Assembly (NCBI GenBank): GCA_024683775.1
Contig: GCA_024683775.1_4106.1
From: a phage
Reading direction: 5' to 3' (one strand)
Length of the DNA stretch: 64,000 nucleotides
Shown: positions 4,758 to 35,981 of the stretch, piece by piece
How the letters are laid out: every line of letters begins with the position of its first letter
Numbering within the stretch: the first letter of the stretch is position 1
Made by a program: the position numbers and the translations under genes
Notes under the pieces: model-generated
The model's database searches: none
What the model was told of the DNA's origin: nothing
What the model saw: the letters and a program-made list of their open reading frames with translations, nothing else

Positions 4758-5197
4758 CACTTTTGCTGATTCTAGGTTTATTAGTGTCATATTTCATTTT
4801 TCTTAACATCTTCTCTGATGCATCACATTTTGCATATGCTTCAGCTATTGCAAAACACGAAGGGATAAAGAAGTATATTCCTGCATTGTTATTCTCATAT
4901 ATGTACCATCCAAGGTACTTTACACTAGGTGTGTTTGACAAGTATGTATACGACGAAAAAGCACTCAATGAAATTGAATACTTTGTAAGAACTCATGCTA
5001 ATAACAATCCAAAATCATTAATTAACTTTACTGATAATCGTAAACGTGTTAGTATTAGAAGTGACTTGTATCCTACCAGTCACTTTCATCTAGGCGATTG
5101 TAGTGTGTACAGAGTTAGATACGAAAACTTACTGTTACCACCATCACATATAAGATACATAGAAAAATACTTGTTGAAATGTGTTGACTCCAAATAG
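4754..5197 (+). CDS. hypothetical protein with N-terminal TM segment
   Basis: 147-aa ORF, ATGA overlap. Confidence 0.45.
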   Translation: MTLLLILGLLVSYFIFLNIFSDASHFAYASAIAKHEGIKKYIPALLFSYMYHPRYFTLGVFDKYVYDEKALNEIEYFVRTHANNNPKSLINFTDNRKRVSIRSDLYPTSHFHLGDCSVYRVRYENLLLPPSHIRYIEKYLLKCVDSK

Positions 5198-5250
5198 TAA
5201 ATGGCAGTATAATAGCTTCGTACCGCAATAACTGACAAGAGGATTTAACG

Positions 5251-5709
5251 ATGGACGTATTAGCTACTCAATTCAAACGCAACGCAGAAGAACGTGAAGG
5301 TTACCTAAGTATCAGTGAAGTGGTTGAAGATGGATTCAAGCAGTACATTTTCAACAGTGCAATTAAACTGAAGCCAACAAAAGATTCACCGGATCGCAGC
5401 TTCACAAAGTGGATTGCATTCTGGGAAGAGTCACCAATTGCAATCGAAATGACTGTCATTACTACAGTACTGGAAACTGGTTACATCAAAGCAATTGTAG
5501 TTGATAAGAAAGTTCGCACTCTTGATGAAATCGGGACATACCCAGCACGTAACTCTAAAGTATTTGGGTGTTTAGTTGATGGTAAGTTTATGATTGAAAA
5601 AGATGCTAAGAACTATGTAATTGATAAACTACAAACCAGTGCTACTAAACAGGAAGTCGTAGACCAGAACGCAGTGGATGCTATTAAAAAGGCATGGGGA
5701 CTGAAATAA
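5251..5709 (+). CDS. hypothetical protein
   Basis: 152-aa ORF. Confidence 0.5.
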   Translation: MDVLATQFKRNAEEREGYLSISEVVEDGFKQYIFNSAIKLKPTKDSPDRSFTKWIAFWEESPIAIEMTVITTVLETGYIKAIVVDKKVRTLDEIGTYPARNSKVFGCLVDGKFMIEKDAKNYVIDKLQTSATKQEVVDQNAVDAIKKAWGLK

Positions 5710-6131: not shown

Positions 6132-6553
6132 GGGGATACAATAAGATTTGTATTTTTGTATTTTTAGTTTGTGCAATCAATACATTTGGATATTACTGTA
6201 CTGAAAACAACATTTCATATGGTTTAAATCCTTTGTGGTTTACAATTGCCAATGTAGCACAAATTGGTATTGCTGTTATGTCTGCACTTATGTTCTGTCC
6301 AATTGTCACTATGGATACTGAACATGAAAGGCTTGGATTTATCCGTGATACTGGAGACGAACCTTACAGTAGATTGATTGTGTTGTATCCATTTATTGTT
6401 ATTTTAGGTACTAACATCCAACTTGGGTCTTTATCTAATAGTGTTACTTCAGCAGCCATTACAGTCTTTGCATTCACATTTTTTATGGTACACAAATCAG
6501 TACTCAAATGGCACATCACCAAAATGGCAGAGAAAGGTACAGAAAACAGTTGA
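6128..6553 (+). CDS. hypothetical membrane protein
   Basis: 141-aa ORF with hydrophobic segments. Confidence 0.45.
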   Translation: MRGYNKICIFVFLVCAINTFGYYCTENNISYGLNPLWFTIANVAQIGIAVMSALMFCPIVTMDTEHERLGFIRDTGDEPYSRLIVLYPFIVILGTNIQLGSLSNSVTSAAITVFAFTFFMVHKSVLKWHITKMAEKGTENS

Positions 6554-6612
6554 CGTGAGTTATTGAGTCATATATAATTATTACATCAAAACGGGGAAAT
6601 GGTAAGGAACTT

Positions 6613-6864
6613 ATGAACATCGATAAGGTCAAAGAACTTAGTGAAGCACTAATTAAGAACGAAGAAGCTTGTGAAGAACTTCGCAGTACTATCAAAGTTG
6701 AGTACGCACGTCTTCAAGCTATGCTTCAGGAATCCGAATGGGTTGTAACTAAATCAATCGAAGCTATCTATAAGGATATCGAATCCCTTTTCAATAAGAA
6801 AAGCAAGTTTGAATCTGATTCATATAACAAGCGTAAAGAATTGAATTCAGTACTCGGTATCTAA
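6613..6864 (+). CDS. hypothetical small protein
   Basis: 83-aa ORF. Confidence 0.45.
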   Translation: MNIDKVKELSEALIKNEEACEELRSTIKVEYARLQAMLQESEWVVTKSIEAIYKDIESLFNKKSKFESDSYNKRKELNSVLGI

Positions 6865-21300: not shown

Positions 21301-21597
21301 ATGAAATTAATTATTGTAATGATGATGTGTTTGGCTTTCCCAGTACTGGCTACTCCTAATCTGGACTGCACACTGTTGCGTTCAGATGGTGACACACTTG
21401 AAATCAACACATATGAACTCTTTGGTCCAAGTGTAGTGGAGAATGAAACCACCTACAATTTCAAAGCTATTGACTTTGAAGGTAATGTTCCAGTACTAAC
21501 TACAATGACTATTGACAAAACTACTTTACTCGGACGAATCACCACACAACGCGGAGAAAGTAAAACATTCACAGCGAAAGCTGACTGTAACTACTAA
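21301..21597 (+). CDS. hypothetical small secreted protein
   Basis: ATG at 21301 with GGAG RBS; signal-peptide-like N-terminus. Confidence 0.45.
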   Translation: MKLIIVMMMCLAFPVLATPNLDCTLLRSDGDTLEINTYELFGPSVVENETTYNFKAIDFEGNVPVLTTMTIDKTTLLGRITTQRGESKTFTAKADCNY

Positions 21598-21618
21598 TGG
21601 TATAGTACAGTGAAAATA

Positions 21619-21649
21619 GGGTTGACTTCGGTCAACCTTTATATATAAT
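21619..21649 (+). terminator. dual terminator-promoter element
   Basis: GGGTTGAC-TTCG-GTCAACC hairpin, then TATAAT 16 nt after the embedded TTGACT. Confidence 0.65.
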
Positions 21650-23759: not shown

Positions 23760-24011
23760 ATGTTTAAATATGTTTTATTTTCACTTGTATTGTTTACTGA
23801 TATAGTTTATAGTACTGAATACCAGTGCTCTATTGCTAGACAGGAGTTTAGAAACGGTGAGTTCTATACCAAGTCTTACACTAGAGGATTGGTACATGAC
23901 AATAATAAAACTATAGGGTTCAATGCATTTGATAACAAAGATCGATATACGTCTGGAATACTATCTGAACGTAAGTCGGATGTAATAGGTATCGAGCATG
24001 AATTCCGGTGA
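23760..24011 (+). CDS. hypothetical small secreted protein
   Basis: signal-peptide-like N-terminus. Confidence 0.45.
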   Translation: MFKYVLFSLVLFTDIVYSTEYQCSIARQEFRNGEFYTKSYTRGLVHDNNKTIGFNAFDNKDRYTSGILSERKSDVIGIEHEFR

Positions 24012-24379: not shown

Positions 24380-24412
24380 GGGTTGACTTCGGTCGGCCCT
24401 TTTTGCTATAAT
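24380..24412 (+). terminator. dual terminator-promoter element
   Basis: GGGTTGAC-TTCG-GTCGGCCC hairpin, T-run, then TATAAT. Confidence 0.65.
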
Positions 24413-24438: not shown

Positions 24439-24852
24439 ATGTTAAAAGTTATTTTCCGTTCTATCAGTTCATTACTTCTTATGATTAGTTCAGTTTCTTA
24501 TGCAAATGAAGTATCTGACTTGTTTGAGAAGAATTACCCAACTGCACAAGAGATGGGTGTTTTAAAATGCAAGCTAACTTCGTACAACATCATCGGCAGT
24601 AAACTTGTACTGGAACATGAACGTAGTACACCAATCCCTCTAGTAGAAGAAGGCAGTACCTTTAGCTTCAAGTACGGGGTGAACGTAACATCTGGTGTAA
24701 TGAACAATGTTGATGCAGAGACTGGTTCAACATGGAGTACTAGCGGTAAAGATGTGTTTCATCGTATGCGTGAAAATGGTAAACTGAAGTACGTATATGA
24801 AAGTTCATTCATGAAACGTGTATTCATTATAAAAAATTGTGTACCAGCATAA
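24439..24852 (+). CDS. hypothetical secreted protein
   Basis: signal-peptide-like N-terminus. Confidence 0.5.
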   Translation: MLKVIFRSISSLLLMISSVSYANEVSDLFEKNYPTAQEMGVLKCKLTSYNIIGSKLVLEHERSTPIPLVEEGSTFSFKYGVNVTSGVMNNVDAETGSTWSTSGKDVFHRMRENGKLKYVYESSFMKRVFIIKNCVPA

Positions 24853-25148: not shown

Positions 25149-25487
25149 ATGGAACATCATTTTGAATTAATTAATAAGGTATCATTTTATGTAGTATCGT
25201 TAATTTGGGTGTATTACATGTTTTGTTACATTATTGCATTCTTCCGATACACAACCTTGTATCAACGCATATACTACGATGCACCCATTTCATTTATGAT
25301 GTTCTGTGCATGTACGTGGGGGATAATTGAAGCACTGGTATGTGGATATAGTACTGACGAATTAAATCTCGTATCGGGGTTGACATTACTAACAATTGCC
25401 ATTATGATAGCTACTGTTCCGATATTTTTGCTCTTTAAACTGCTTCATCGTATTGATGAGTGGCGTAATAAAATCCCTGAAAAGTAA
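25149..25487 (+). CDS. small membrane protein, paralog family B member 1
   Basis: 3-4 hydrophobic segments; C-terminal EWRNKIPEK tail shared with paralogs. Confidence 0.55.
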   Translation: MEHHFELINKVSFYVVSLIWVYYMFCYIIAFFRYTTLYQRIYYDAPISFMMFCACTWGIIEALVCGYSTDELNLVSGLTLLTIAIMIATVPIFLLFKLLHRIDEWRNKIPEK

Positions 25488-25496
25488 GGATTGATA

Positions 25497-25838
25497 ATGA
25501 TTTTTTACACTAATGCGTTTGCTTATGCCGTTGCATCAATCTACATTGTGTACTTCTTATTTGGTGGAGTACTGTACTTCTTTAAGTACAAAACATTGTT
25601 TAACCGAATGTATCCAAATCATCCAATTGTAGTAGTACTTTTGATTATTTCTGTTGCTCACATCATTGTAGAAACAATAATGGGTATCAGTGCAGTACAT
25701 TACAGTCTAGGTACTATTGTAATTATTACTATGATCATCGCATACATTTTAGTAATGGGTTTTGGTTTATTTGGAAATGTAGCAATGAAATTGTATAATC
25801 GAATCAAAACATTACGTGATAATCTACCGGAGCGTTGA
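25497..25838 (+). CDS. small membrane protein, family B member 2
   Basis: C-terminal LRDNLPER tail; ATG at 25497. Confidence 0.55.
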   Translation: MIFYTNAFAYAVASIYIVYFLFGGVLYFFKYKTLFNRMYPNHPIVVVLLIISVAHIIVETIMGISAVHYSLGTIVIITMIIAYILVMGFGLFGNVAMKLYNRIKTLRDNLPER

Positions 25839-25839
25839 G

Positions 25840-26184
25840 ATGTATAATTTAAATTTAATATCATATATCATAACAACACTGTTTACTTTCTATGCCTTTG
25901 TTGGTATACTCCTACTGTACTTTAAATTTTATAAACTTTTTGATCGTTTTTATCCGTCATTAGAACATGAATTCTTATTAGTGATGTACATATGTCTAAC
26001 GTTTATGTCTACATTTTTCACTGCATCTGATGGTATCATTGGTATTAAAGCTGAAGAACCAAATGGGAGTACGCTTGTTGCCTTTATTCTGGTAGGATTT
26101 TTCAGTACTTATATTACCTTTATTTCAGGATGTACCGTGATTGATTATCTTGTGAAATTACGAGATAAAATGCCAAATCGATAG
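25840..26184 (+). CDS. small membrane protein, family B member 3
   Basis: C-terminal LRDKMPNR tail; ATG at 25840 with GGAG RBS. Confidence 0.55.
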   Translation: MYNLNLISYIITTLFTFYAFVGILLLYFKFYKLFDRFYPSLEHEFLLVMYICLTFMSTFFTASDGIIGIKAEEPNGSTLVAFILVGFFSTYITFISGCTVIDYLVKLRDKMPNR

Positions 26185-26193
26185 GGGATTGCT

Positions 26194-26451
26194 ATGTTTG
26201 CATTGCGTAATAAAAATACAAAAGAGATTCTGTGTATCTCAACAGTATGGGATTGTGCAGGAAGTGAAATGATTCTCGAAGAAGGTTCAGGTGATTGTGT
26301 TTATGTTGTTCAGGATCGTCGCGAACTGGAATCATTACTTGACGAATTTAATGCTGGTGGAAATCCTAAAAGTACTCAATTCCCTGAGATCAGGAATCCA
26401 GCACCACCAGGCTCTTATGAAATTCTACAACTGTGGGAGATGGATAAGTAA
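26194..26451 (+). CDS. hypothetical small protein
   Basis: 85-aa ORF. Confidence 0.45.
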   Translation: MFALRNKNTKEILCISTVWDCAGSEMILEEGSGDCVYVVQDRRELESLLDEFNAGGNPKSTQFPEIRNPAPPGSYEILQLWEMDK

Positions 26452-26831
26452 TGCGTCAAATGCACAAAGTAACCGAGCTAAACAAGCGTCTGATTAAACA
26501 ATCAATGTTTGAGGATAAAGAGTCTTACTATAACTTCAAACGTGCTGTAGAGGCTGCTATCCACATTCAGAAGCTTAAAGATAGTGGATGTATTATTCTC
26601 GAAAATGGTTCTGACGTTGTTACTGATGACTTCAGTGTAGCGTTTGATGTTTCACCTGATGGTTCGCTATCAATGCCACGCTTAGGGACTGGTGACATGA
26701 CTGTGTGGGTAGGTTTCACTATGGGGAATGTACCAGGCACGGTGTATGTAGATGATGCTGAGTTGAAAGAAAGCTTCAAAAACTTATCGCATCTTGAACC
26801 ACAATACGCACATGAAATGAATTTATTTTGA
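26451..26831 (+). CDS. hypothetical protein
   Basis: 126-aa ORF. Confidence 0.5.
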   Translation: MRQMHKVTELNKRLIKQSMFEDKESYYNFKRAVEAAIHIQKLKDSGCIILENGSDVVTDDFSVAFDVSPDGSLSMPRLGTGDMTVWVGFTMGNVPGTVYVDDAELKESFKNLSHLEPQYAHEMNLF

Positions 26832-26832
26832 G

Positions 26833-26860
26833 TTGACAAACTCATTCAGTACTGTATAAT
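26833..26860 (+). promoter_or_regulatory. sigma70-like promoter TTGACA-N16-TATAAT with CAGTACTG spacer
   Basis: hexamers read directly; followed by leader hairpin GGGGATGA-ACTTC-TCATCCCC at 26870..26890. Confidence 0.6.
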
Positions 26861-26907
26861 GTTTATCAAGGGGATGAACTTCTCATCCCCACAATCGAGG
26901 AATTGTC

Positions 26908-27462
26908 ATGATTACTTTTAAGAAAACTGCTAACCACATCCATGAGATCTACATTAACGGTCACAAAGCTGGCCTTCTTCGTTTACTCGCCCATCATCCG
27001 AATATTACCGTATCTGATAATGAACCTAAAGATTGGCGTGTATTTTTCTTTGGAAAGTACAGTGATTTTCAAGTATCAAACCTGAAGAACATTCGTTCAG
27101 TATGCACGTTAACTGAAATTAAAGAAAAGTTAACCAAAGCATTGAAAACTAATCCAGATAGTGTTCTTCCACCTGATAACTTTGTAGAGAAAGGATATGC
27201 CTTAGCTCATTTCAAAGATGGTACTATTCAATCTATCAGTACTGAATATGAATATCAATGGACTGAGTACTTCACTTATGGATCGCGTAATACATTGATG
27301 GCTTCACGTAGTAAATTGGAAGAAGTACTGACTCGTATGAATGAACGCGAGCGTCAATTTTATGACAAACCAGAAATGTGGAGTTCAACTTACATTGACC
27401 GTATTGACTATGTTATTATGACTCCAATCTTTGACACTGCTTACTATGATTCTTTGAAATAA
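26908..27462 (+). CDS. hypothetical protein
   Basis: 184-aa ORF downstream of promoter and leader hairpin. Confidence 0.55.
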   Translation: MITFKKTANHIHEIYINGHKAGLLRLLAHHPNITVSDNEPKDWRVFFFGKYSDFQVSNLKNIRSVCTLTEIKEKLTKALKTNPDSVLPPDNFVEKGYALAHFKDGTIQSISTEYEYQWTEYFTYGSRNTLMASRSKLEEVLTRMNERERQFYDKPEMWSSTYIDRIDYVIMTPIFDTAYYDSLK

Positions 27463-27473
27463 GGATAACTTAT

Positions 27474-27650
27474 ATGAAACTACGTACTCGTAATCGACTG
27501 ATGGATGCACTGTACCATGAACAGCTTTCACTGAATGAAGTGAAGCGTCAGTTAATGTACACATATCTGTTACCCGCTCGCATTGCAAAACAACGTGCTA
27601 AAGAATTGCTGAAAGAAGCAATCGAGTACTGGGAATCTGATTCGTACTAA
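27474..27650 (+). CDS. 58-aa hypothetical protein (below ORF-track cutoff)
   Basis: ATG at 27474 filling an otherwise empty gap; hand translation MKLRTRNRLMDALYHEQL... Confidence 0.35.
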   Translation: MKLRTRNRLMDALYHEQLSLNEVKRQLMYTYLLPARIAKQRAKELLKEAIEYWESDSY

Positions 27651-27678
27651 TTGTCACGTTAATTAAGTGAGGCGATAA

Positions 27679-27930
27679 ATGAAAATTTTATTAGTTCTAA
27701 TACTACTAATTGTTTTACCATTTACGTTAGTATCCCCTGAACTTGCATGGAATGTGTTTGTGTACTTACTATGTACTATTGTAGTAAATGGTATCTTGTT
27801 CTTAGTTCTATTCATAAATGGAATAGGACACGGTGGAGGATGGACCAGTACTGCTGATATTGTACATAAAACCACTATGTCTTTATTTGTAGTGTGGAAT
27901 TTATTCTGGACTTGGTTTGTGTTCTTCTAA
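27679..27930 (+). CDS. hypothetical small membrane protein
   Basis: 83-aa ORF with hydrophobic segments. Confidence 0.45.
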   Translation: MKILLVLILLIVLPFTLVSPELAWNVFVYLLCTIVVNGILFLVLFINGIGHGGGWTSTADIVHKTTMSLFVVWNLFWTWFVFF

Positions 27931-27939
27931 TTAAAAAAT

Positions 27940-28311
27940 ATGAATATAGATTTGAAAGGTGCAACCCGAACTGTCATACTCATTGGGGAATATGCTATCA
28001 AGATTCCAACCTTTAAAAGTTGGAAGCTATTCTTAACAGGGATGATAGCTAACCTCAATGAACGTTCTTGGATGCAGTACTCCAAGCGTAGTGATAGTGG
28101 TATCTGCCCTACGTTGTGGTCATCATGTACTGGACTAGTAACTGTACAGAAACGTTGTAAGCCAGTACAACATAGGGGTTTATTTTGGGTGGAGTTGTGT
28201 GCTTTAGCATTGGATTCAGAGTTGAGTACTGACTTCTTCTATTCAGATGCGAAGCCAGAAAACTTTGGGTATCTGGGTGGTAAGTTAGTTAAACTTGATT
28301 ATGGAGATTAA
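27940..28311 (+). CDS. hypothetical protein
   Basis: 123-aa ORF. Confidence 0.5.
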   Translation: MNIDLKGATRTVILIGEYAIKIPTFKSWKLFLTGMIANLNERSWMQYSKRSDSGICPTLWSSCTGLVTVQKRCKPVQHRGLFWVELCALALDSELSTDFFYSDAKPENFGYLGGKLVKLDYGD

Positions 28312-28312
28312 T

Positions 28313-28600
28313 ATGTACGCACTGTATAATAAAGAAAAGAAACAATTTGCTAAGGTTGAAAAATCGATTGATACATTTGGCATGTTTAAGTACTGTATTG
28401 TGACGGACCCATATGCTAACTTGTATTACGTTCTTGATGACGTATCAGTACTGCAACGATTGCTTGAACGTTCCAAAAGCCAATGCCAAGGTATCCATGA
28501 TGGTTCAACTTATGAAACACCTGAGTGTTCCTATGGCTATCTGGATGGGTATGAGATTGTGAAGTTGGGTGCATTGTTGAATAAATGGATTAAACAATGA
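28313..28600 (+). CDS. hypothetical protein
   Basis: ATG at 28313 with GGAG RBS. Confidence 0.45.
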   Translation: MYALYNKEKKQFAKVEKSIDTFGMFKYCIVTDPYANLYYVLDDVSVLQRLLERSKSQCQGIHDGSTYETPECSYGYLDGYEIVKLGALLNKWIKQ

Positions 28601-29010
28601 AGAAGTGTATCACGTGTAATATTGAAAAAGACATTAGTGAATTTGGTATAAGAAGTGATACTGGGAAACATAGAAATACATGCAAAGGTTGTAGTAATAT
28701 TACCAGTAAGAGAACCAGAAATAAAAAAACTGATGTAAAAACACTTGAAGAAATCAAAAGAAAAAATAAAGATTTCATGACCAGAGTTAAATCATTTTAT
28801 GGTTGTAGTGTTTGTATGATGAAGTATCCAGAATGTTTAGACTTTCACCATCTTGACCCTAATACCAAAGAACATACACCAAGTTCTATGTTCAGTAAAA
28901 GTCGAGAATCTATCAAAGATGAAATTCGAAAGTGTATGATTCTTTGTTCTAATCACCATCGCATGGTACATTCTGGTAGACTATGTTTGATTGAAAGAAA
29001 AAAGGGTTGA
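28597..29010 (+). CDS. HNH endonuclease
   Basis: CxxC zinc-knuckle pairs plus DFHHLDP ... CSNHHRMVH motif; stop codon lies inside the downstream terminator stem. Confidence 0.65.
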   Translation: MKKCITCNIEKDISEFGIRSDTGKHRNTCKGCSNITSKRTRNKKTDVKTLEEIKRKNKDFMTRVKSFYGCSVCMMKYPECLDFHHLDPNTKEHTPSSMFSKSRESIKDEIRKCMILCSNHHRMVHSGRLCLIERKKG

Positions 29011-29036
29011 CTTCGGTCAGCCCTTTTTGCTATAAT
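29004..29036 (+). terminator. dual terminator-promoter element
   Basis: GGGTTGAC-TTCG-GTCAGCCC hairpin, T5, then TATAAT 18 nt after the embedded TTGACT. Confidence 0.7.
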
Positions 29037-29064
29037 CATTTCATCGAAACGAGAGGATGAATAC

Positions 29065-29580
29065 ATGACACGCATTAACTTAGTACACGTTAAAGAACTT
29101 GCTGACCAACATCTGATGGCTGAATATCGTGAACTCCCACGTGTGTTTGGTGCTGTACAAAAACATGTTCAAGCACGTAAGCGAGTCCGTGATTTCAAAA
29201 TTAACAGTACTTACCTGTTAGGTTCAGGTCATGTAACATTCTTCTACAACAAGTTATTGTACTTACAGAAGCGTCATATTGATATTGTTAACGAATGTTT
29301 GCGTCGTGGGATGAAGATTCAAAACACTGAAGTAAACGACATTAGCGGATTCCCTACTGAGTTTTGTAATGACTACGTACCATCGGAGTCAGAGATTAAA
29401 ATGTCTCGTGAGCGTTTGATTGAGAAGCTACAGATGAAGCCTACGTGGTATAAGTTTACTGATGTTGAACGCCCACAGTACGTTAAAGATATGCAGGACG
29501 TAAGTAGTAATATAGAATCTAGTACTGATATGTTCGACGAAATTGAAGAACAAATCAAAGATGAAATGAATAATTATTAA
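29065..29580 (+). CDS. denV: pyrimidine dimer DNA glycosylase (T4 endonuclease V homolog)
   Basis: N-terminus [35 protein letters not shown]...GHVTFFY matches the T4 endoV sequence as I recall it; carries an extra acidic C-terminal extension. Confidence 0.88.
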
Positions 29581-29587
29581 AGGTAAG

Positions 29588-29619
29588 GGTTGACTTCGGT
29601 CAGCCCTTTTTGCTATAAT
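29588..29619 (+). terminator. dual terminator-promoter element
   Basis: GGGTTGAC-TTCG-GTCAGCCC hairpin, T5, then TATAAT. Confidence 0.7.
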
Positions 29620-29647
29620 TATTTCATCAACTGATGAGGATAACGAA

Positions 29648-30418
29648 ATGACCAGAGAAGCCCGTAGCATTCAAATCCAGAAAAACTTCAACTCCATGAT
29701 GGTTGCTCTTGAGTGTTTGCTCGATGATAGCAGTACTGTAAAAAGTATGGTTGTCAGCGGTGCACCTGGTGTTGGTAAGACTTACACCCTGTCACAACGC
29801 CTCCAGAAAGCTCATGACGCAGCAGAATGGAACGTAGCTACTATCAGTGGTAAGATGACTACTCTTGCTCTGTATGAAGTTCTGTACAAGAATCGTCACA
29901 GCACCAACGTATTAGTACTGGATGATATGGACAGCATCTTTGATTCAGAAGACGGTATGAACCTGCTCAAAGCAGTACTGGACAGCGGTAAACGTACTGT
30001 GTCTTACATGACTAGCTCTAAGTACTTAACTACCAACGGTATCCCTAACAGCTTTGATTTTAACGGTCGTATCGTATTCATTACTAACAAAGATTTGGCA
30101 CTGAATGCTAAAGCTAAAACCAAAATGTCTGCTCACTATGCTGCTCTTATGTCTCGCTCTGTGTATGTTGACTTACAGATCCAGACTAAAAGCGATATCA
30201 TGATTCACATTGAAAACGTAATGAACAAGACCAACATCCTGTCAACTAAAGGTGTTAATAGTAATGGTAGCAAAGCAATCCTGAATTGGATGCTGAAACA
30301 TGAAGATGCACTTCGTGCTCCTTCACTGCGTATGCCTCTGTTGATTTCAGCAGTATACAACAACAACCCGTATGATTGGGAAGAGCAGTGCGAAAACTTG
30401 TTCCTTGAGAAAATTTAA
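29648..30418 (+). CDS. P-loop NTPase (AAA-type ATPase-like)
   Basis: Walker A GAPGVGKT and Walker B-like VLVLDDMD. Confidence 0.6.
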   Translation: MTREARSIQIQKNFNSMMVALECLLDDSSTVKSMVVSGAPGVGKTYTLSQRLQKAHDAAEWNVATISGKMTTLALYEVLYKNRHSTNVLVLDDMDSIFDSEDGMNLLKAVLDSGKRTVSYMTSSKYLTTNGIPNSFDFNGRIVFITNKDLALNAKAKTKMSAHYAALMSRSVYVDLQIQTKSDIMIHIENVMNKTNILSTKGVNSNGSKAILNWMLKHEDALRAPSLRMPLLISAVYNNNPYDWEEQCENLFLEKI

Positions 30419-30427
30419 TTACATGTA

Positions 30428-30456
30428 TTGACAGTACTACCATAGTGTAGTACTAT
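30428..30456 (+). promoter_or_regulatory. sigma70-like promoter TTGACA-N17-TACTAT
   Basis: hexamers read directly upstream of the family B cluster. Confidence 0.5.
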
Positions 30457-30485
30457 AACTTAATATTCACCACCGGAGATACGAT

Positions 30486-30824
30486 ATGCTTGAGTTTTTT
30501 AATTCAGATACAATGCTTAGTATTACTTTGATTTATCTGTTTGGTTTTTTCTTTTATCATGCACTAGTTGTAGTACTATGGTATTTTAAAAAGAAAATCG
30601 TTTTCAAACTGTATCCTGATGGAAACATTTCACTACTTCTTTTCACTATTATCCAAGGTATGTTTGCAATTGTTGGTCTTATCGCACACTTAATTTATTG
30701 TGCTAATCCACAGTTGAACTCAATATCACAATATATTGTATTCCTTGGATTACTAATTTGGGTGCTGATATACTTGTTTAATCTCATCATTAATGGTAGA
30801 GCAAAAATTCGTGGGGACTTCTAA
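30486..30824 (+). CDS. small membrane protein, family B member 4
   Basis: hydrophobic segments; basic C-terminus. Confidence 0.5.
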   Translation: MLEFFNSDTMLSITLIYLFGFFFYHALVVVLWYFKKKIVFKLYPDGNISLLLFTIIQGMFAIVGLIAHLIYCANPQLNSISQYIVFLGLLIWVLIYLFNLIINGRAKIRGDF

Positions 30825-31171
30825 TGTTTGAATCTTATCTTGAGTTTTTAAAGAGTAGTTCTGTTGCACATTCAATTGCAGGGATTATTCTAACAGGTTA
30901 TGTAACATTTTGGGTAGTTATGTTTCTAGGATGGTATTTTAAACGACAATTCTATAAGCGTAATGGTGAAGATTTTATGAATTCTTTCATTAATCAATCG
31001 TTGTTTGCATCAACATTGATAGCATGTATTGTAGCAACACTCACAGGAAAGGTACTGCCAGCATTCTCCGCAGTTTACGGTACATTGGGTATGATATGTG
31101 TAGTTTTTTACTTGACCATTAAACTTTGTTGTGTTATGATTGAACTTCGAAACAAGATACCGGAGGAATGA
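30824..31171 (+). CDS. small membrane protein, family B member 5
   Basis: C-terminal ELRNKIPEE tail. Confidence 0.55.
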   Translation: MFESYLEFLKSSSVAHSIAGIILTGYVTFWVVMFLGWYFKRQFYKRNGEDFMNSFINQSLFASTLIACIVATLTGKVLPAFSAVYGTLGMICVVFYLTIKLCCVMIELRNKIPEE

Positions 31172-31506
31172 TGGAATATTTTTTACACTTACTGCCGTGG
31201 TATATGAAAGTTAGTACTATGTACTATATTCTTAGTGCTGGATTCTACTTTCTGATGTGGTTCTTCAAACGACCAATTTCAGTATTCATCTCTGATAACA
31301 TGCTGCAATTAAAATTACACGCATGGTTTGGTATGGCGATGTTCATGCCTATTATTCACTACTCAATGATTAGTAGAGGGTTCCGTTCCAATGGTGAACC
31401 AATTATATTAGTATTCTATTGGGGTTCAACTATTGCATATGTAAGTTTGTTGTTGTTCCCAGTCGTTCATAAATTACGTGCTAAAGTTCCTGATGCGAGG
31501 TACTAA
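31168..31506 (+). CDS. small membrane protein, family B member 6
   Basis: C-terminal KLRAKVPD tail. Confidence 0.55.
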   Translation: MMEYFLHLLPWYMKVSTMYYILSAGFYFLMWFFKRPISVFISDNMLQLKLHAWFGMAMFMPIIHYSMISRGFRSNGEPIILVFYWGSTIAYVSLLLFPVVHKLRAKVPDARY

Positions 31507-31820
31507 TGGATATCGTAACATTGATTTACACGCTTTATTCATTCTATTTTATTATGTGTTGGGTTGGATTTTTATTTGTATTGAAGATGTTTGATTATGT
31601 TGAAAAACAGATAAAAGAATTTTGTATTCCTTTTATTGGGTCAACCATAATTAGTATTACTTGTTTGTATTATTTGGTATGTGATCCACCTGTTAATACA
31701 GCAATGATTGACTTCATGTTATTACCAACAACTGTTATTTTTTTATGTAGTCTGATGCCACCGATTAGTCGTGGGCTAACCGAATTTAGACGCAATCAAA
31801 AGCGTAAACGAGGGATGTGA
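31506..31820 (+). CDS. small membrane protein, family B member 7
   Basis: hydrophobic segments; basic C-terminus. Confidence 0.5.
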   Translation: MDIVTLIYTLYSFYFIMCWVGFLFVLKMFDYVEKQIKEFCIPFIGSTIISITCLYYLVCDPPVNTAMIDFMLLPTTVIFLCSLMPPISRGLTEFRRNQKRKRGM

Positions 31821-32188
31821 TGGAAATTGCACTTATTATATTAACTGCTATGTTGTTTATTAGTACAATTGTTATTATTGGCAAGTTCTTCTGTGTATCC
31901 TTCTTGGAAACCGTATACGATGAAATTGCTGATGACTATGAATTACATGCAGGATTTTTTACTACGTATTGGATTAGTTTATTACTACTTATCACTGTAT
32001 GGATTTTACATATATTCAAATGGGGTATGGTAGATGGTGATCCAGTACTGGCAATTATCTGTGTAGTGTTTGGTCTACTCGGTGGTGCTGTCCATAATCT
32101 GATGGTAATTTGGCAAACCGTACAATATGTATTAGTTCCACATTTTCAGAGAATGCACCAAAGCATCAAATACCGCAAACGAGGATAA
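31817..32188 (+). CDS. small membrane protein, family B member 8
   Basis: hydrophobic segments; basic C-terminus. Confidence 0.5.
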   Translation: MMEIALIILTAMLFISTIVIIGKFFCVSFLETVYDEIADDYELHAGFFTTYWISLLLLITVWILHIFKWGMVDGDPVLAIICVVFGLLGGAVHNLMVIWQTVQYVLVPHFQRMHQSIKYRKRG

Positions 32189-32189
32189 C

Positions 32190-32552
32190 ATGAATAATAT
32201 TGAATTATCTTTTATTGGTCAATTAATGGTAATGGCGTATACATTTATCTTCTCACTGAATGCATTCGTGTGCATTGGGAAATACTTCCATAAGCGACCA
32301 TTATCAAATATATATGATGTAATACAAAGGAGATATAGTCCAGCATATACTGTGTTGAGTACAGCATTCAATTTTGGTTTTATTCTAATGCTGGTTGCAT
32401 TATTAACATCGAGTTCGAATTTTATAACATTTGGTATTATGGTATGTTCACTAACACTGTGTGTGGTTATTCTCTGTGCATCCGTTGAGTTGCTGGCATG
32501 GATGTATAATAAGATTTCCGAAATCCATGAGCGTTTAGGTAAGAGGAACTAA
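32190..32552 (+). CDS. small membrane protein, family B member 9
   Basis: hydrophobic segments; basic C-terminus. Confidence 0.5.
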   Translation: MNNIELSFIGQLMVMAYTFIFSLNAFVCIGKYFHKRPLSNIYDVIQRRYSPAYTVLSTAFNFGFILMLVALLTSSSNFITFGIMVCSLTLCVVILCASVELLAWMYNKISEIHERLGKRN

Positions 32553-32553
32553 A

Positions 32554-32925
32554 ATGAGTTATCGTGAAATATTTTCGATCATTACTATTATTGTGTTTAG
32601 TTTAGGTTCTTTGATTTGGTTATTGTATTACTTCTGTGTAACCCCAGTATATAATATGCTAAATTCAGTTCGCTCTGATGTTGGTATTGTTTCTTTTATT
32701 ATCTTCATGGCATATTATATGCTAAGTATCACAGGTTTGGTTTCGGTTGTTATCTTTGACCTTGGACCGAATCAAGATGGCATGGAGATGTGGGAATTGA
32801 TAACGATGTTTGCATGTATGATACCTGCATTTGGTGTATGTGCTGGTGTATTTTATGGGTTGTGTAAAGGTGTGAACTACTTAAAAAATATCCACAATAC
32901 TATTCGTAAAAAACGTATGTTATAA
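32554..32925 (+). CDS. small membrane protein, family B member 10
   Basis: hydrophobic segments; basic C-terminus. Confidence 0.5.
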   Translation: MSYREIFSIITIIVFSLGSLIWLLYYFCVTPVYNMLNSVRSDVGIVSFIIFMAYYMLSITGLVSVVIFDLGPNQDGMEMWELITMFACMIPAFGVCAGVFYGLCKGVNYLKNIHNTIRKKRML

Positions 32926-32961
32926 TAAAAAATCCAGTACTATAATAGTACTGGATTAATT

Positions 32962-34086
32962 TTAATTATCTAAGCCACCAATTACACTGAACTGTGTGGT
33001 AACGTCTGAACTATTATCTATGTAAGTTCTTCTACCAACATAATATAGTTGTCCTTTTGCTTGAATAAAAGTTACGGTCCCTGTATTAAATGTTATAATA
33101 TCATTGTATGTAATGTCAGGTGGTAGTGCTGCTGATAACGCAGTAACTTTACTTAATGCAGCACTAGTACTACCATTTATACCAGCAGCAATACTACCAG
33201 TACCATAGAACTTATTATCTTTACCAATGAATACGTTGGCTGATGCTTGTGTAGCTGATGTTATTGCCTTACCAATTTGGAATGCGGTTCCTATGGTGTA
33301 TGGTGTGCTCCTGGCAGCGTCTATGCTTTGTGTATATCCATCCCCTAGCTGACCATTAACTTTGTCACCACATGAGTATAGAGTACCATTGAGGCTGTAT
33401 ATGATCCCACGGTTAGAGAAGCTAACAGCTTCTGCATTAGTCCATACTGGTGCGGTGTATGAGTTTACACGACTCGCGGTAGTTCCTAGACCTAGTATAC
33501 CATATGTGTTATCACCACATCCAAACCATTGCCCAGAACTGTTTTGATAGAACACTGAACGTTCTGTTGATTCCATGCGTACAGCATCCACAGCACCACT
33601 TTTAACGAACGAAGTGGATGAGGATGTAGTACCAGTACCCAATGCACCATAAGTGTTTGTACCAATCGCATAGATTGATCCTAGTGGTGTCATAACACGT
33701 ATGCAGTTATATCCCAATTGAACTTTACATTCAAATAGGTTGTCCCATATTTCAGGAACAGCAGAAAATAAATTTGTAATTTCGAACCATGATGTTGTCG
33801 AACCAGTTAATCCTATACTGCTTTTGTTTCCTAAAATGAAAACAGTTTTGTCCTTCTTAATTATCCATGATGATAGGAAACCTATCTCACAGCTATGAAC
33901 ATTTGATTCTATTTGGGTAATATAATACTTAACTGTGTTATCACCCATGAATGCCGCAGCACCGGATGCAAAAAGGTTTCCAGTTTGTTTATTTAAAATG
34001 TAGTTATTGTTTCCATATACACTAACATCATAAGAACTTTCTTGTTTTTCGTTCCCATAATCAAATAACAATACGAAAGGTAACAT
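32962..34086 (-). CDS. MLPF-leader RCC1-like beta-propeller paralog A1 (FDYGN subtype)
   Basis: N-terminus MLPFVLLFDYGN; GDNTYGILGLG and GDKVNGQLGDG repeat motifs; AAGGAG RBS. Confidence 0.65.
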   Translation of the reverse strand: MLPFVLLFDYGNEKQESSYDVSVYGNNNYILNKQTGNLFASGAAAFMGDNTVKYYITQIESNVHSCEIGFLSSWIIKKDKTVFILGNKSSIGLTGSTTSWFEITNLFSAVPEIWDNLFECKVQLGYNCIRVMTPLGSIYAIGTNTYGALGTGTTSSSTSFVKSGAVDAVRMESTERSVFYQNSSGQWFGCGDNTYGILGLGTTASRVNSYTAPVWTNAEAVSFSNRGIIYSLNGTLYSCGDKVNGQLGDGYTQSIDAARSTPYTIGTAFQIGKAITSATQASANVFIGKDNKFYGTGSIAAGINGSTSAALSKVTALSAALPPDITYNDIITFNTGTVTFIQAKGQLYYVGRRTYIDNSSDVTTQFSVIGGLDN

Positions 34087-34847: not shown

Positions 34848-35981
34848 TTAAACTGGTGGAGAATTATATGGCTCAAATTTATAAGTTGTCGTAGTAGTAC
34901 CAGCAAGGACGTTGTTAGCTAGTATGTACATAGTCCTGTAGTCGATTACCACCACAGTAATACTACCACCAAAAGCATAGTCTGTTATGTTATTAGTGTT
35001 GAATGGTAAATTAGATGAACTGGTCCATGTATTAGCTGTTGTGCTATTTGTACCATTGGAATAGCCGACACTAGATGTACCAGTTGTCCATAAGTTTCCA
35101 TCATTGAACAACGATACATGGTTAGCTGTATATGATTTATTAGGTATAGAACTATCAATTGGTGTATTCCAAACTTTAGTAACCCATGTTGTAACTTCTG
35201 TATTATTAGTAACGCCATTACCTAATGAACCATTTATTGGTATACCTCTTATATAAGAAGTGTTAGTACTAGGGTCAACATATCCAAATGTATATGTATC
35301 AAATGCAAATTGAAAACAATCAGAACTCGGTAATGTGTACAGTAATGTATATGAAGACGTGATTATTGATGAATTTGTACCGTTCACGCCTTGGTATAAA
35401 ATACCACTAGCCAATATTTGATTATTATTTTTTGTTATAGTGTTCATTAACGGATATGTTTTCACATCACGCACATCATTAGTCACATATGTTTGTGTTG
35501 ATAATGCAACTTTACTACCATTACCTATAACCCCTGTATTTGCACCACTCCCATAAAGTGAACCATCATTCAAAAGAACCATTGTAACATTACCATTTCC
35601 CGTAATTGTTTTAATATTACTAACATCCACCGCAGCAAATACAGTTGATGTTAAATCAGTGAAACGTGTATAATGTGATGTTGTGCCATTGATTGGTGTC
35701 GCAAAACCAGAATACAAAATTCTATTTTCTTTGGTAATAAGGAATGTTCCAGTAACACCGTTTGAATGGATATCAATAATATTATCGCCCATTAATACCC
35801 AATCACTTACGAATGTTGTACCAGCACCCAACCCATATGTCGTATTGTATCCACGTCCATACACTCTACCATCACTGAGTAATGTTACCACACATTGACC
35901 ACCACCACCAAGTATAACTTTTTGGATAGTACTCTTTACTTTTACATTCCCGTACTTAACCATTCTTGCAAAAGGTAACAT
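34848..35981 (-). CDS. MLPF-leader RCC1-like paralog A2 (VKYGN subtype)
   Basis: N-terminus MLPFARMVKYGN; Gly/Ser/Thr/Asn-rich repeats; only 12 nt downstream of A3. Confidence 0.65.
   Translation of the reverse strand: MLPFARMVKYGNVKVKSTIQKVILGGGGQCVVTLLSDGRVYGRGYNTTYGLGAGTTFVSDWVLMGDNIIDIHSNGVTGTFLITKENRILYSGFATPINGTTSHYTRFTDLTSTVFAAVDVSNIKTITGNGNVTMVLLNDGSLYGSGANTGVIGNGSKVALSTQTYVTNDVRDVKTYPLMNTITKNNNQILASGILYQGVNGTNSSIITSSYTLLYTLPSSDCFQFAFDTYTFGYVDPSTNTSYIRGIPINGSLGNGVTNNTEVTTWVTKVWNTPIDSSIPNKSYTANHVSLFNDGNLWTTGTSSVGYSNGTNSTTANTWTSSSNLPFNTNNITDYAFGGSITVVVIDYRTMYILANNVLAGTTTTTYKFEPYNSPPV

What the first reader, a model, noticed from the sequence alone, without database searches (positions are those of the whole stretch)
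25149..32925. Ten-member small membrane-protein family split into two clusters by an HNH/denV/ATPase island
Three paralogs (25149-26184) and seven paralogs (30486-32925) encode ~105-125-aa proteins with 3-4 hydrophobic segments; five end in a conserved L-R-x-K-[IMV]-P-[EDN] tail and the rest in basic tails. The clusters are separated by ~4.3 kb containing unrelated genes including an HNH endonuclease, denV and a P-loop ATPase, as if a once-contiguous array was interrupted by insertion of a mobile block. Multi-copy small membrane proteins in phages are often superinfection-exclusion or immunity factors, or holin/antiholin-like.
Basis: partly seen in the sequence, partly recalled or inferred. 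Interest (0 to 1): 0.65.

Follow-up and report, generated by a model that had tools for sequence, protein, structure and literature searches.

The report
Jumbo-phage three-pass membrane protein family
Ten small genes in this giant E. coli phage encode one real, phage-only family of three-pass inner-membrane proteins of unknown function. They sit at two old loci, and no mobile element split them from a single array.

Summary
All ten ORFs exist, each is predicted to span the membrane three times (N-terminus out, C-terminus in), and all ten are homologous beyond shared hydrophobicity. They form three subgroups: A (m1-m6), C (m7) and B (m8-m10).

Profile-profile scores are 44-45, against about 16.5±3.5 for block-shuffled columns. 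No reversed decoy or off-array ORF is ever recruited.

The window is an Asteriusvirus (121Q/PBECO4-like) jumbo coliphage. The seven-gene cluster is an ancient operon with fixed A→C→B order. It has its own conserved sigma70-like promoter, overlapping start/stop codons and a terminal hairpin.

It lies directly downstream of a T4 NrdC.10-like AAA+ ATPase in every Escherichia, Klebsiella, Erwinia and metagenomic relative examined. The three-gene cluster is a lineage-specific tandem expansion of one upstream A-type gene (0, 1 or 3 copies elsewhere).

The "island" is conserved backbone. Only the HNH gene, about 404 bp, is a recent insertion, so the split-array idea is not supported.

Function is unknown. 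No Pfam, NCBIfam, PADLOC or structural match exists, and orthologs are absent from a virion proteome. Conserved residues lie on the cytoplasmic face and periplasmic parts vary. My best inference is early membrane-level host-takeover or exclusion factors, held with low confidence.

The parts
24383..24412 (+). Hairpin-plus-sigma70-like promoter cassette (PeSL-like) heading the transcription unit that contains cluster 1
   Evidence: TTGACT-18-TATAAT, 11/12 with TG. The cassette AAGGGTTGACTTCGGTCGGCCCTTTTTGCTATAAT is visible in the intergenic sequence. The core motif occurs 8 times in the window against 0 expected.
25149..25487 (+). m1, subgroup A (cluster 1), 112 aa, 3 TM
   Evidence: phrog_19285 1.3e-47; ortholog of the single cluster-1-type gene of phage A4
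25491..25838 (+). m2, subgroup A (cluster 1), 115 aa; likely true start ATG 25497 (113 aa)
   Evidence: start inferred from 121Q gp208 and P0023
25816..26184 (+). m3, subgroup A (cluster 1), 122 aa; likely true start ATG 25840 (114 aa)
   Evidence: start inferred from 121Q gp209 and P0026
28586..28989 (+). HNH homing-endonuclease insertion (ORF 28597-29010). It is the only recently mobile piece of the island and is not part of the family.
   Evidence: Absent at exactly this point in 121Q and JNE01; absent together with the adjacent 101-aa ORF in A4; present in ph0011. phrog_2255 2.5e-32.
29648..30418 (+). NrdC.10-like AAA+ ATPase, the conserved anchor immediately upstream of cluster 2 in all relatives
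   Evidence: tblastn finds 1,310 phage records including T6 nrdC.10. The RaK2 ORF307 note reads nrdC.10. PF00004 scores 23.8, above its 21.2 cutoff. Homologs precede the array in all ten loci.
30428..30456 (+). Cluster 2's own sigma70-like promoter (TTGACA-17-TACTAT)
   Evidence: The -35 TTGAC is invariant and the -10 is conserved in 121Q, ph0011, JNE01 and phAPEC6, even where the flanking proteins are only 38-59% identical.
30486..30824 (+). m4, subgroup A, 112 aa
   Evidence: (phrog_19454)
30824..31171 (+). m5, subgroup A, 115 aa; AF2 model with pLDDT 82.5
   Evidence: (phrog_19046)
31168..31506 (+). m6, subgroup A, 112 aa
   Evidence: phrog_27396; m5-m6 hhalign 91%
31506..31820 (+). m7, subgroup C, 104 aa; the most divergent member, linked to the family through subgroup B
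   Evidence: phrog_33258; B-C 94.3%
31817..32188 (+). m8, subgroup B, 123 aa
   Evidence: (phrog_26405)
32190..32552 (+). m9, subgroup B, 120 aa
32554..32925 (+). m10, subgroup B, 123 aa
   Evidence: phrog_27618; A-only HMM 1.8e-6
32931..32957 (.). 12-bp-stem bidirectional hairpin terminator between cluster 2 and the convergent RCC1-like genes

Best explanation
Shown: the ten genes belong to one phage-restricted superfamily of proteins about 105-125 aa long with three membrane-spanning helices. The predicted topology is N-terminus in the periplasm and C-terminus in the cytoplasm. Two landmarks are shared by the whole family, and both lie on the cytoplasmic face. One is an invariant Phe at the cytoplasmic end of TM1 (LWFFK in subgroup A, GKFFC in B/C). 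The other is an Arg or His in a C-terminal helix (L-R-x-K-I-P-E in A, L-H-x-x-I-R-x-K-R in B/C). The seven-gene cluster is an ancient operon with fixed A→C→B order. It has its own conserved sigma70-like promoter, gene junctions of -4 to +1 nt and a terminal hairpin, and it always lies immediately downstream of the NrdC.10-like AAA+ ATPase. The three-gene cluster is a lineage-specific tandem expansion of a single upstream A-type gene. The two loci were not separated by a recent mobile insertion; only the HNH gene is one. All members evolve under purifying selection, yet they sit in mosaic, copy-number-variable modules. Inferred (about 0.35): the genes are transcribed early by host RNA polymerase and the proteins insert into the host inner membrane. 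There they act as host-takeover or conflict factors, for example blocking entry of competing phages or neutralising membrane-located host functions. On this view the variable periplasmic and TM surfaces give each paralog its own specificity, and the conserved cytoplasmic face contacts a common partner.
For: Homology: and the alignments. Topology and conservation: K+R averages 3.5 in loop 1 and 3.3 in the tail, against 0.2 and 0.5 in the N-terminus and loop 2. Relative entropy is highest at the TM1 end and the tail and is 0.13 bits in loop 2. The AF2 model shows three long helices. Restricted distribution: 51 cluster representatives in 1.84e9 proteins, 50 of them 89-123 aa plus one 56-aa fragment, none fused to another domain; 20 and 12 clusters in 5.8e9. 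Conserved array: A(3-6)-C(0-2)-B(2-4) starts 731-1272 nt after the ATPase start in ten loci from four phage groups. Orthogroups are position-specific. Early-type expression: the promoter is conserved; PeSL-like cassettes are present (PMC4122927); the TATAAATA late motif is absent nearby; RpoD-like promoters mark the suspected early host-takeover region in the related phage CBB (PMC5259590). Real genes: dN/dS is 0.10-0.40 and all have SD sequences. Non-virion: the phAPEC6 cluster-2 orthologs gp012c-017c are not among 62 MS-detected virion proteins. Turnover typical of conflict genes: upstream copies number 0, 1 or 3; m4, m5 or m7 are duplicated in some phages; m7 is split in 121Q. Members are 26-65% identical to JNE01/A4 while the five island genes present in both those phages are 93-100% identical.
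Against: No experiment or annotated homolog bears on function. Each position in the array is an old orthogroup kept in fixed order with translational coupling. That fits a co-assembled complex at least as well as a set of independent specificity variants. dN/dS gives no sign of gene-wide positive selection, and part of the divergence reflects allele exchange (dS 0.09-1.5) rather than fast protein evolution. Topology comes from hydropathy, the positive-inside rule and AF2, not from a dedicated predictor or experiment. Promoter timing is inferred from sequence only.
Confidence: 0.45

Rival explanations
1. The paralogs are subunits of one hetero-oligomeric inner-membrane complex (a channel, scaffold or anchor) made in fixed proportions from a translationally coupled operon. 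The complex may work with the adjacent NrdC.10-like AAA+ ATPase.
For: A→C→B order and position-specific orthogroups are conserved across Escherichia, Klebsiella, Erwinia and metagenomic phages. Gene junctions are -4 to +1 nt. The cytoplasmic-face motifs are conserved and could mediate subunit or partner contacts. The ATPase is always adjacent.
Against: Copy number varies (7-10 downstream by HMM, 0-3 upstream). The m7 ortholog is split in 121Q with no sign the phage is defective, and type C is absent in Hallingskeid and the metagenomic contigs. ATPase homologs occur in more than 1,300 phages without the array, e.g. T6 and Ettore. Alleles are exchanged independently: dS differs about ten-fold between adjacent members.
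Confidence: 0.2
2. The proteins are class I holin-like or antiholin-like and control lysis timing.
For: Their size (~105-125 aa), three TM helices with predicted N-out/C-in topology and charged C-terminal tail match the general class I holin description (class I holin features are from my own knowledge). No holin is mentioned for these phages in the CBB paper.
Against: No hit to any holin family in Pfam or NCBIfam even at E≤0.1-1. The promoters are early-type sigma70-like and no T4-type late motif lies nearby. The genes are not next to the endolysin, which is gp532 in 121Q while the family is gp207-232. Ten divergent copies kept in fixed order are not expected for a holin.
Confidence: 0.1
3. 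One reading: a once-contiguous ten-gene array was split by insertion of a mobile HNH/denV/ATPase block.
For: An HNH homing endonuclease does lie in the gap and is a true presence/absence insertion. The region is plastic, with indels bounded by repeated promoter-hairpin cassettes.
Against: The split is shared by all Asteriusviruses examined and by RaK2/KP13-7, where homologs of the island genes also lie between the lone upstream A-type gene and the array. The island genes are conserved backbone genes. The HNH insertion is 404 bp and does not touch the family. In an approximate NJ tree the cluster-1 genes fall in one clade that expanded locally from one copy.
Confidence: 0.05
4. The ten proteins are not all homologous; the m7-m10 resemblance is only a shared three-TM hydropathy pattern.
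For: Pairwise BLASTP and shallow-alignment hhalign do not link A with B or C. The direct A-C comparison is marginal. Locally shuffled copies of members still match the profiles.
Against: A-B and B-C profile scores are about 8 SD above block-shuffled columns that keep the hydropathy pattern, and far above reversed profiles. 0 reversed decoys were recruited. The landmark Phe and Arg/His align. Array co-location and order are conserved in all relatives.
Confidence: 0.04

Closest known systems
PHROG families 19285, 19454, 19046, 27396, 33258, 26405, 27618 (all 'unknown function')
   Same: Nine of the ten proteins are full-length members of these families, with E-values of 1e-46 to 1e-61 for most.
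   Different: PHROGs treats them as seven unrelated families and m9 has no family. Here they are joined into one superfamily with shared landmarks and a conserved gene order.
Class I holins (e.g. lambda S105)
   Same: Similar length, three TM helices, predicted N-out/C-in topology and a charged cytoplasmic C-terminus (the holin features are from my own knowledge).
   Different: No sequence match to holin models. Early-type promoters rather than late ones. Not next to the endolysin. Ten ordered paralogs instead of one gene.
T4 Imm / Sp and other small membrane superinfection-exclusion proteins
   Same: Small phage-encoded inner-membrane proteins in an early, plastic, non-essential-looking region of a T4-related genome (inference).
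   Different: No sequence or profile similarity. Three TM helices. A multi-copy array rather than single genes. No phenotype known.
Hyperplastic regions with PeSL cassettes in T4-like phages (PMC2839356, PMC4122927)
   Same: The surrounding island carries repeated hairpin-plus-early-promoter cassettes at gene boundaries, and indels between relatives are bounded by them.
   Different: Cluster 2 is not flanked gene-by-gene by such cassettes. It is a single compact operon with a different promoter, and its order is conserved across genera.

Membership tests
Single homologous superfamily comprising all ten ORFs | Profile-level similarity exceeding controls that preserve hydropathy | tested here: met
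   hhalign A-B 44.2 vs 16.5±3.4, B-C 45.1 vs 16.5±3.7; 0 reversed decoys; an A-only HMM finds B/C members and nothing off-array. Direct A-C is marginal.
Single homologous superfamily comprising all ten ORFs | Shared landmark residues and common topology | tested here: met
   Invariant Phe at the end of TM1 and Arg/His in the C-tail in both alignments. Nine of ten have 3 TM segments plus the positive-inside pattern.
Class I holin | Three TM helices, N-out/C-in, charged C-terminal tail, ~100 aa | tested here: met
   Prediction only: hydropathy, K/R distribution and the AF2 model.
Class I holin | Sequence membership in a described holin family | tested here: not met
   No holin model hit in Pfam (E≤1) or NCBIfam (E≤0.1).
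Class I holin | Late expression and linkage to endolysin/spanin genes | tested here: not met
   Conserved sigma70-like promoter and no TATAAATA nearby. The 121Q endolysin is gp532, far from gp207-232. Timing is inferred from sequence, not measured.
Class I holin | Triggered lethal hole formation in the inner membrane | not testable with these tools
   Needs expression experiments.
T4 Imm/Sp-type superinfection exclusion proteins | Sequence membership (Imm_superinfect or Spackle-type models, PHROG 'superinfection' families) | tested here: not met
   No such hits for any member. The 83-aa TM ORF in the island (27679-27930) also has no Pfam or PHROG hit.
T4 Imm/Sp-type superinfection exclusion proteins | Exclusion of superinfecting phage when expressed | not testable with these tools
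   Needs efficiency-of-plating assays.
Anti-phage defence effectors (PADLOC) | Match to a known defence-system membrane effector model | tested here: not met
   Only m9 vs a '2TM effector' model at E=0.084 and 10.8 bits, which is not significant.
Array split by a mobile element | Intervening block is variably present and the array is contiguous in relatives | tested here: not met
   The split is present in all relatives that have both loci. Only the 404-bp HNH segment is variable.
Virion structural proteins | Detection in the purified virion proteome | tested here: not met
   phAPEC6 gp012c-gp017c are absent from the 62-protein list, while the neighbouring RCC1-like proteins are present. Small hydrophobic proteins are hard to detect by MS.

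The most novel reading that the evidence does not exclude
The conserved A→C→B operon may encode the subunits of a previously unrecognised hetero-oligomeric inner-membrane machine specific to Rak2-like jumbo phages. It would be built early in infection, would share a cytoplasmic docking face (WFFK and the R/H tail), and might be served by the adjacent NrdC.10-like AAA+ ATPase. A phage-made channel or membrane platform is one example. The upstream copies would be exchangeable accessory subunits.
Probability: 0.15. Interest if true: 0.7.

Novelty: new variant of a known kind. Interest (0 to 1): 0.38.

Why it matters
Rak2/121Q-like jumbo phages are being developed for therapy, yet more than 80% of their genes have no assigned function. 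This work merges seven "unknown" PHROG families and one orphan into a single membrane-protein superfamily. The superfamily has defined landmark residues, a predicted topology, and a gene order conserved across phages of three host genera. That gives a concrete, compact target of about 2.4 kb with one promoter for deletion and expression experiments on how these phages remodel or guard the host inner membrane. It also corrects a tempting but wrong reading, that a mobile island split an array, and shows that the real recent mobile event is a single HNH gene.

Tried and rejected
1. The UniRef label "DUF3784 domain-containing" on the KP13-7 member was not reproduced by Pfam at E≤1.

2. The ph0011 notes "Phi92_gp231/gp233" did not hold up. 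The phi92 genes are unrelated 121-aa and 75-aa ORFs, and the family HMM finds nothing in phi92.

4. Pfam, NCBIfam and PADLOC gave no significant hits.

5. The search for related loci with the alignment failed because no stretch was conserved enough.

6. Local-shuffle (8-residue) decoys proved a poor control for jackhmmer, because they still match their own parents. They were replaced by reversed decoys and column-shuffled profile controls.

7. The island's 83-aa TM ORF (27679-27930) was tested as a possible T4 Imm-like protein, because Hallingskeid annotates a "superinfection immunity protein" there. It had no PHROG or Pfam hit.

8. An obligate ATPase-array partnership was considered and rejected. 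T6 and Pseudomonas phage Ettore have the ATPase without any array.

9. Literature searches found no description of this family.

Full report
**Identity of the window.** The region is 98-99% identical to Escherichia phages EC.P1 and fEgEco12. It is 86-97% identical over parts of the query to other 121Q/PBECO4-type jumbo coliphages of the genus Asteriusvirus, which have genomes of about 350-385 kb.

**The observation.**
- All ten ORFs are present as described, 104-123 aa, all on the + strand.
- A Kyte-Doolittle scan finds three hydrophobic segments in nine of them. m6 is aromatic- and Met-rich and passes the threshold only once, but it aligns full-length with the others.
- Lys and Arg concentrate in the first loop and the C-terminal tail.
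- The 4.3-kb gap holds an HNH endonuclease, denV and an AAA+ ATPase.
- m2 and m3 probably start at ATG 25497 and ATG 25840, judged from the 121Q annotation and database representatives.

**First tests of paralogy.** Pairwise BLASTP supports only m1-m2-m3 (E 3.5e-12 and 1e-7) and marginally m4-m5. PHROGs files the proteins in seven separate unknown-function families, and m9 is in none. A few weak full-length cross-hits link these families. I fetched the syntenic regions of 121Q, JNE01, ph0011, A4, KP13-7, RaK2 and Erwinia phage Hallingskeid. I then repeated the comparison with profiles.

**Profile evidence for homology.**
- Jackhmmer was run against all ORFs of these loci, 67 database representatives and reversed-sequence decoys. 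Seeds m1-m5 and m9 each recover all ten window proteins, no other window ORF and no decoy.
- An HMM built only from subgroup A finds m10 (1.8e-6), m9 (3e-4) and the orthologs of m8 and m7 (about 1e-3) in a single pass. It has no significant hit (E<0.01) outside the arrays.
- Profile-profile comparison with deep alignments gives A-B 94.8% probability. The score is 44.2, against 16.5±3.4 for target columns shuffled within 8-column blocks and 15.3 for the reversed profile.
- B-C gives 94.3% probability, with 45.1 against 16.5±3.7. Direct A-C is marginal, 22.6 against 14.3±3.6.
- Three subgroups result: A = m1-m6, C = m7, B = m8-m10.

**Anatomy of the proteins.**
- Subgroup A carries an N-terminal M-x-E-[FY], an L-W-F-F-K motif at the end of TM1 with an invariant Phe, and a C-terminal L-R-x-K-[IL]-P-[ED].
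- Subgroups B and C carry G-K-F-F-C (G-[FY]-L-F-A in C) with the same invariant Phe. Their C-terminal motif is L-H-x-x-I-[RK]-x-K-R, with a near-invariant His at the position of A's Arg. Several A members also have His there.
- Across 55 subgroup-A sequences, mean K+R is 3.5 in loop 1 and 3.3 in the tail. It is 0.2 in the N-terminus and 0.5 in loop 2, which gives an N-out/C-in topology by the positive-inside rule.
- Conservation peaks at the TM1 cytoplasmic end and in the tail. It is lowest in the predicted periplasmic loop 2, at 0.13 bits.
- AlphaFold2 on m5 with this alignment has pLDDT 82.5. It gives helices at 2-11, 13-38, 43-53, 55-74 and 79-110.

**Distribution.** An exhaustive HMMER search of 1.84 billion cluster representatives with a subgroup-A profile finds 51 proteins at E≤1e-3. 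Fifty are 89-123 aa and one is a 56-aa fragment, and none is fused to another domain. Word-indexed searches of 5.8 billion proteins give 20 hits for A and 12 for B/C. All are unnamed hypothetical proteins, and those on long contigs come from phage-sized (250-385 kb) ones. tblastn limits the family to Escherichia and Salmonella Asteriusviruses, Klebsiella Alcyoneusviruses and one Erwinia jumbo phage.

**Genomic architecture.**
- In all ten loci examined, the family array starts 731-1272 nt after the start of a homolog of the 256-aa ATPase. The order is always A(3-6), then C(0-2), then B(2-4), sometimes with a trailing A. These loci include a metagenomic contig with six A, three B and three further three-TM ORFs.
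- An approximate neighbour-joining tree recovers position-specific orthogroups (m4- to m10-type) shared by Escherichia and Klebsiella phages.
- The ATPase is the T4 NrdC.10-type protein. It occurs in 1,310 phage records, is annotated as such in RaK2 and T6, and passes the Pfam AAA threshold. PMC1524935 also describes it as AAA-like.
- T6 and Pseudomonas phage Ettore have this ATPase without any array.

**The upstream locus.** It holds three A-type genes in the window, 121Q, ph0011 and JNE01, and one in A4, RaK2 and KP13-7. None was detected at E≤1e-3 in Hallingskeid or the metagenomic contigs. In the tree, the cluster-1 genes form one clade in which A4's single gene groups with m1.

**The "interrupted array" idea.**
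- The five island genes present in all four Asteriusvirus relatives compared are the 184-, 58-, 83- and 123-aa ORFs and denV. They are 89-100% identical across those relatives, and 93-100% identical to the divergent JNE01 and A4.
- The ATPase is mosaic: 96% identical in 121Q and A4, 59% in ph0011 and JNE01.
- In RaK2, homologs of several island genes, including the 126- and 184-aa ORFs, denV and the ATPase, lie between the lone upstream gene and the array.
- The only clean presence/absence insertion is about 404 bp (28586-28989) carrying the HNH gene. It is absent from 121Q, JNE01 and A4, and it lies between a 101-aa ORF and denV.
- The two-locus arrangement is therefore ancestral, and cluster 1 is a local tandem expansion.

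**Expression signals.**
- Cluster 2 is preceded by TTGACA-17-TACTAT at 30428-30456.
- The -35 TTGAC is invariant and the -10 is conserved in 121Q, ph0011, JNE01 and phAPEC6. This holds even though the flanking proteins are only 38-59% identical in JNE01.
- Gene junctions are -4 to +1 nt, and every gene has a Shine-Dalgarno sequence.
- A 12-bp-stem hairpin at 32931-32957 closes the unit against convergent RCC1-like genes.
- Cluster 1 lies downstream of a hairpin-plus-promoter cassette at 24381.
- The T4-type late motif TATAAATA occurs once in the 64-kb window against 12.3±3.7 expected, and not near the clusters.
- In the related phage CBB, RpoD-like promoters mark a region of short ORFs suspected to be early host-takeover genes, and late genes carry ATAAATA (PMC5259590).
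- Early expression is an inference from these points.

**Selection and turnover.**
- Between the window and 121Q, dN/dS is 0.10-0.40 for nine members; m7 was not measurable because its 121Q ortholog is split. The genes are therefore under purifying selection.
- dS ranges from 0.15 to 1.49 among members and from 0.085 to 0.68 among neighbours, which indicates mosaic ancestry.
- Against JNE01 and A4 the members are only 26-65% identical.
- Copy number varies. m4 is duplicated in 121Q and ph0011, m5 in RaK2, m7 in JNE01, and m7 is split into two ORFs in 121Q.

**Searches for function.**
- Pfam, NCBIfam and PADLOC give no significant match.
- The phAPEC6 cluster-2 orthologs gp012c-017c are not among the 62 virion proteins found by mass spectrometry, whereas the neighbouring RCC1-like proteins are.
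- No paper in the searchable library describes the family.

**Interpretation.**
- Firmly supported: one superfamily, a predicted three-pass topology with a conserved cytoplasmic face, an ancient ordered operon after the NrdC.10-like ATPase, a secondary tandem expansion upstream, and an HNH insertion unrelated to the split.
- Inferred with low confidence: these are early, non-virion inner-membrane factors for host takeover or exclusion. On this view the variable outward-facing parts set specificity and the conserved inward-facing motifs bind a shared partner.
- The main rival is a hetero-oligomeric membrane complex. It is favoured by the fixed order and translational coupling, and disfavoured by copy-number variation and independent allele exchange.
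- A holin-like role fits the topology but not the promoters, the location or the sequence.

Noticed in passing
window 9120, 17247, 20841, 21620, 23699, 24381, 29005, 29588 (+ strand): A repeated cassette, AAGGGTTGACTTCGGTCAGCCCTTTTTGCTATAAT, occurs 8 times against 0 expected. It is a GC hairpin carrying the -35 box, followed by a T-run and a -10 box. It resembles the PeSL terminator/early-promoter cassettes of T4-like phages (PMC4122927). Indels between this phage and 121Q, JNE01 and A4 are bounded by copies of it.
   Followed up: partly
window 28586-28989 (ORF 28597-29010): The HNH homing-endonuclease gene is a clean insertion of about 404 bp relative to 121Q and JNE01. It lands immediately upstream of denV's promoter cassette. 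It is present in ph0011 and the closest relatives.
   Followed up: yes
window 29648-30418: The NrdC.10-like AAA+ ATPase is mosaic among Asteriusviruses. It is 96% identical in 121Q and A4 but only 59% in ph0011 and JNE01, while the neighbouring denV stays 89-96% identical. This points to allele replacement by recombination.
   Followed up: partly
whole window: The T4-type late promoter motif TATAAATA occurs once (20409) against 12.3±3.7 expected in shuffles. This suggests the motif is avoided outside late transcription units.
   Followed up: no
window 32962-34086 and 34848-35981 (- strand) and onward: An array of RCC1-repeat paralogs lies convergent to cluster 2. The phAPEC6 counterparts (gp003, 005, 006, 007, 009, 010, 549, 551) are virion proteins by mass spectrometry, although they are annotated as 'DNA condensation proteins'.
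   Followed up: partly
window 26194-26451 and 28295-28600: Two paralogous small ORFs, both phrog_8563, flank the highly conserved four-gene block 26908-28311 of the island.
   Followed up: no
L001 (121Q) 21304-21619: The m7 ortholog of 121Q is split into two annotated ORFs (gp228, gp229). This is a likely frameshift or pseudogene, or a sequencing error.
   Followed up: no
L002 (JNE01) 6473-6826: A Lys-rich, non-membrane 117-aa ORF sits inside JNE01's upstream family cluster, between two A-type genes.
   Followed up: no
L016 (phAPEC6) 4865-5231: The phAPEC6 record leaves the position of the m9 ortholog unannotated, between gp013c and gp012c.
   Followed up: no
L005 (Hallingskeid) 5331-5675 and 6439-6789; L003 (KP13-7) 1537-1893; L009 11589-12320: Further three-TM ORFs of 102-118 aa lie near the arrays and fall below the family HMM thresholds (best E=0.036). 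They may be still more divergent members.
   Followed up: partly
window 23760-24011 and 24439-24852: Two small ORFs upstream of cluster 1 begin with signal-peptide-like hydrophobic N-termini. The early unit therefore also seems to encode exported proteins.
   Followed up: no
L004 (ph0011) annotation; P0017 source name: Two misleading public labels were found. The 'Phi92_gpNNN' notes on ph0011 genes do not correspond to homologs in phi92. The UniRef name 'DUF3784 domain-containing' for the KP13-7/RaK2 member is not reproduced by Pfam.
   Followed up: yes
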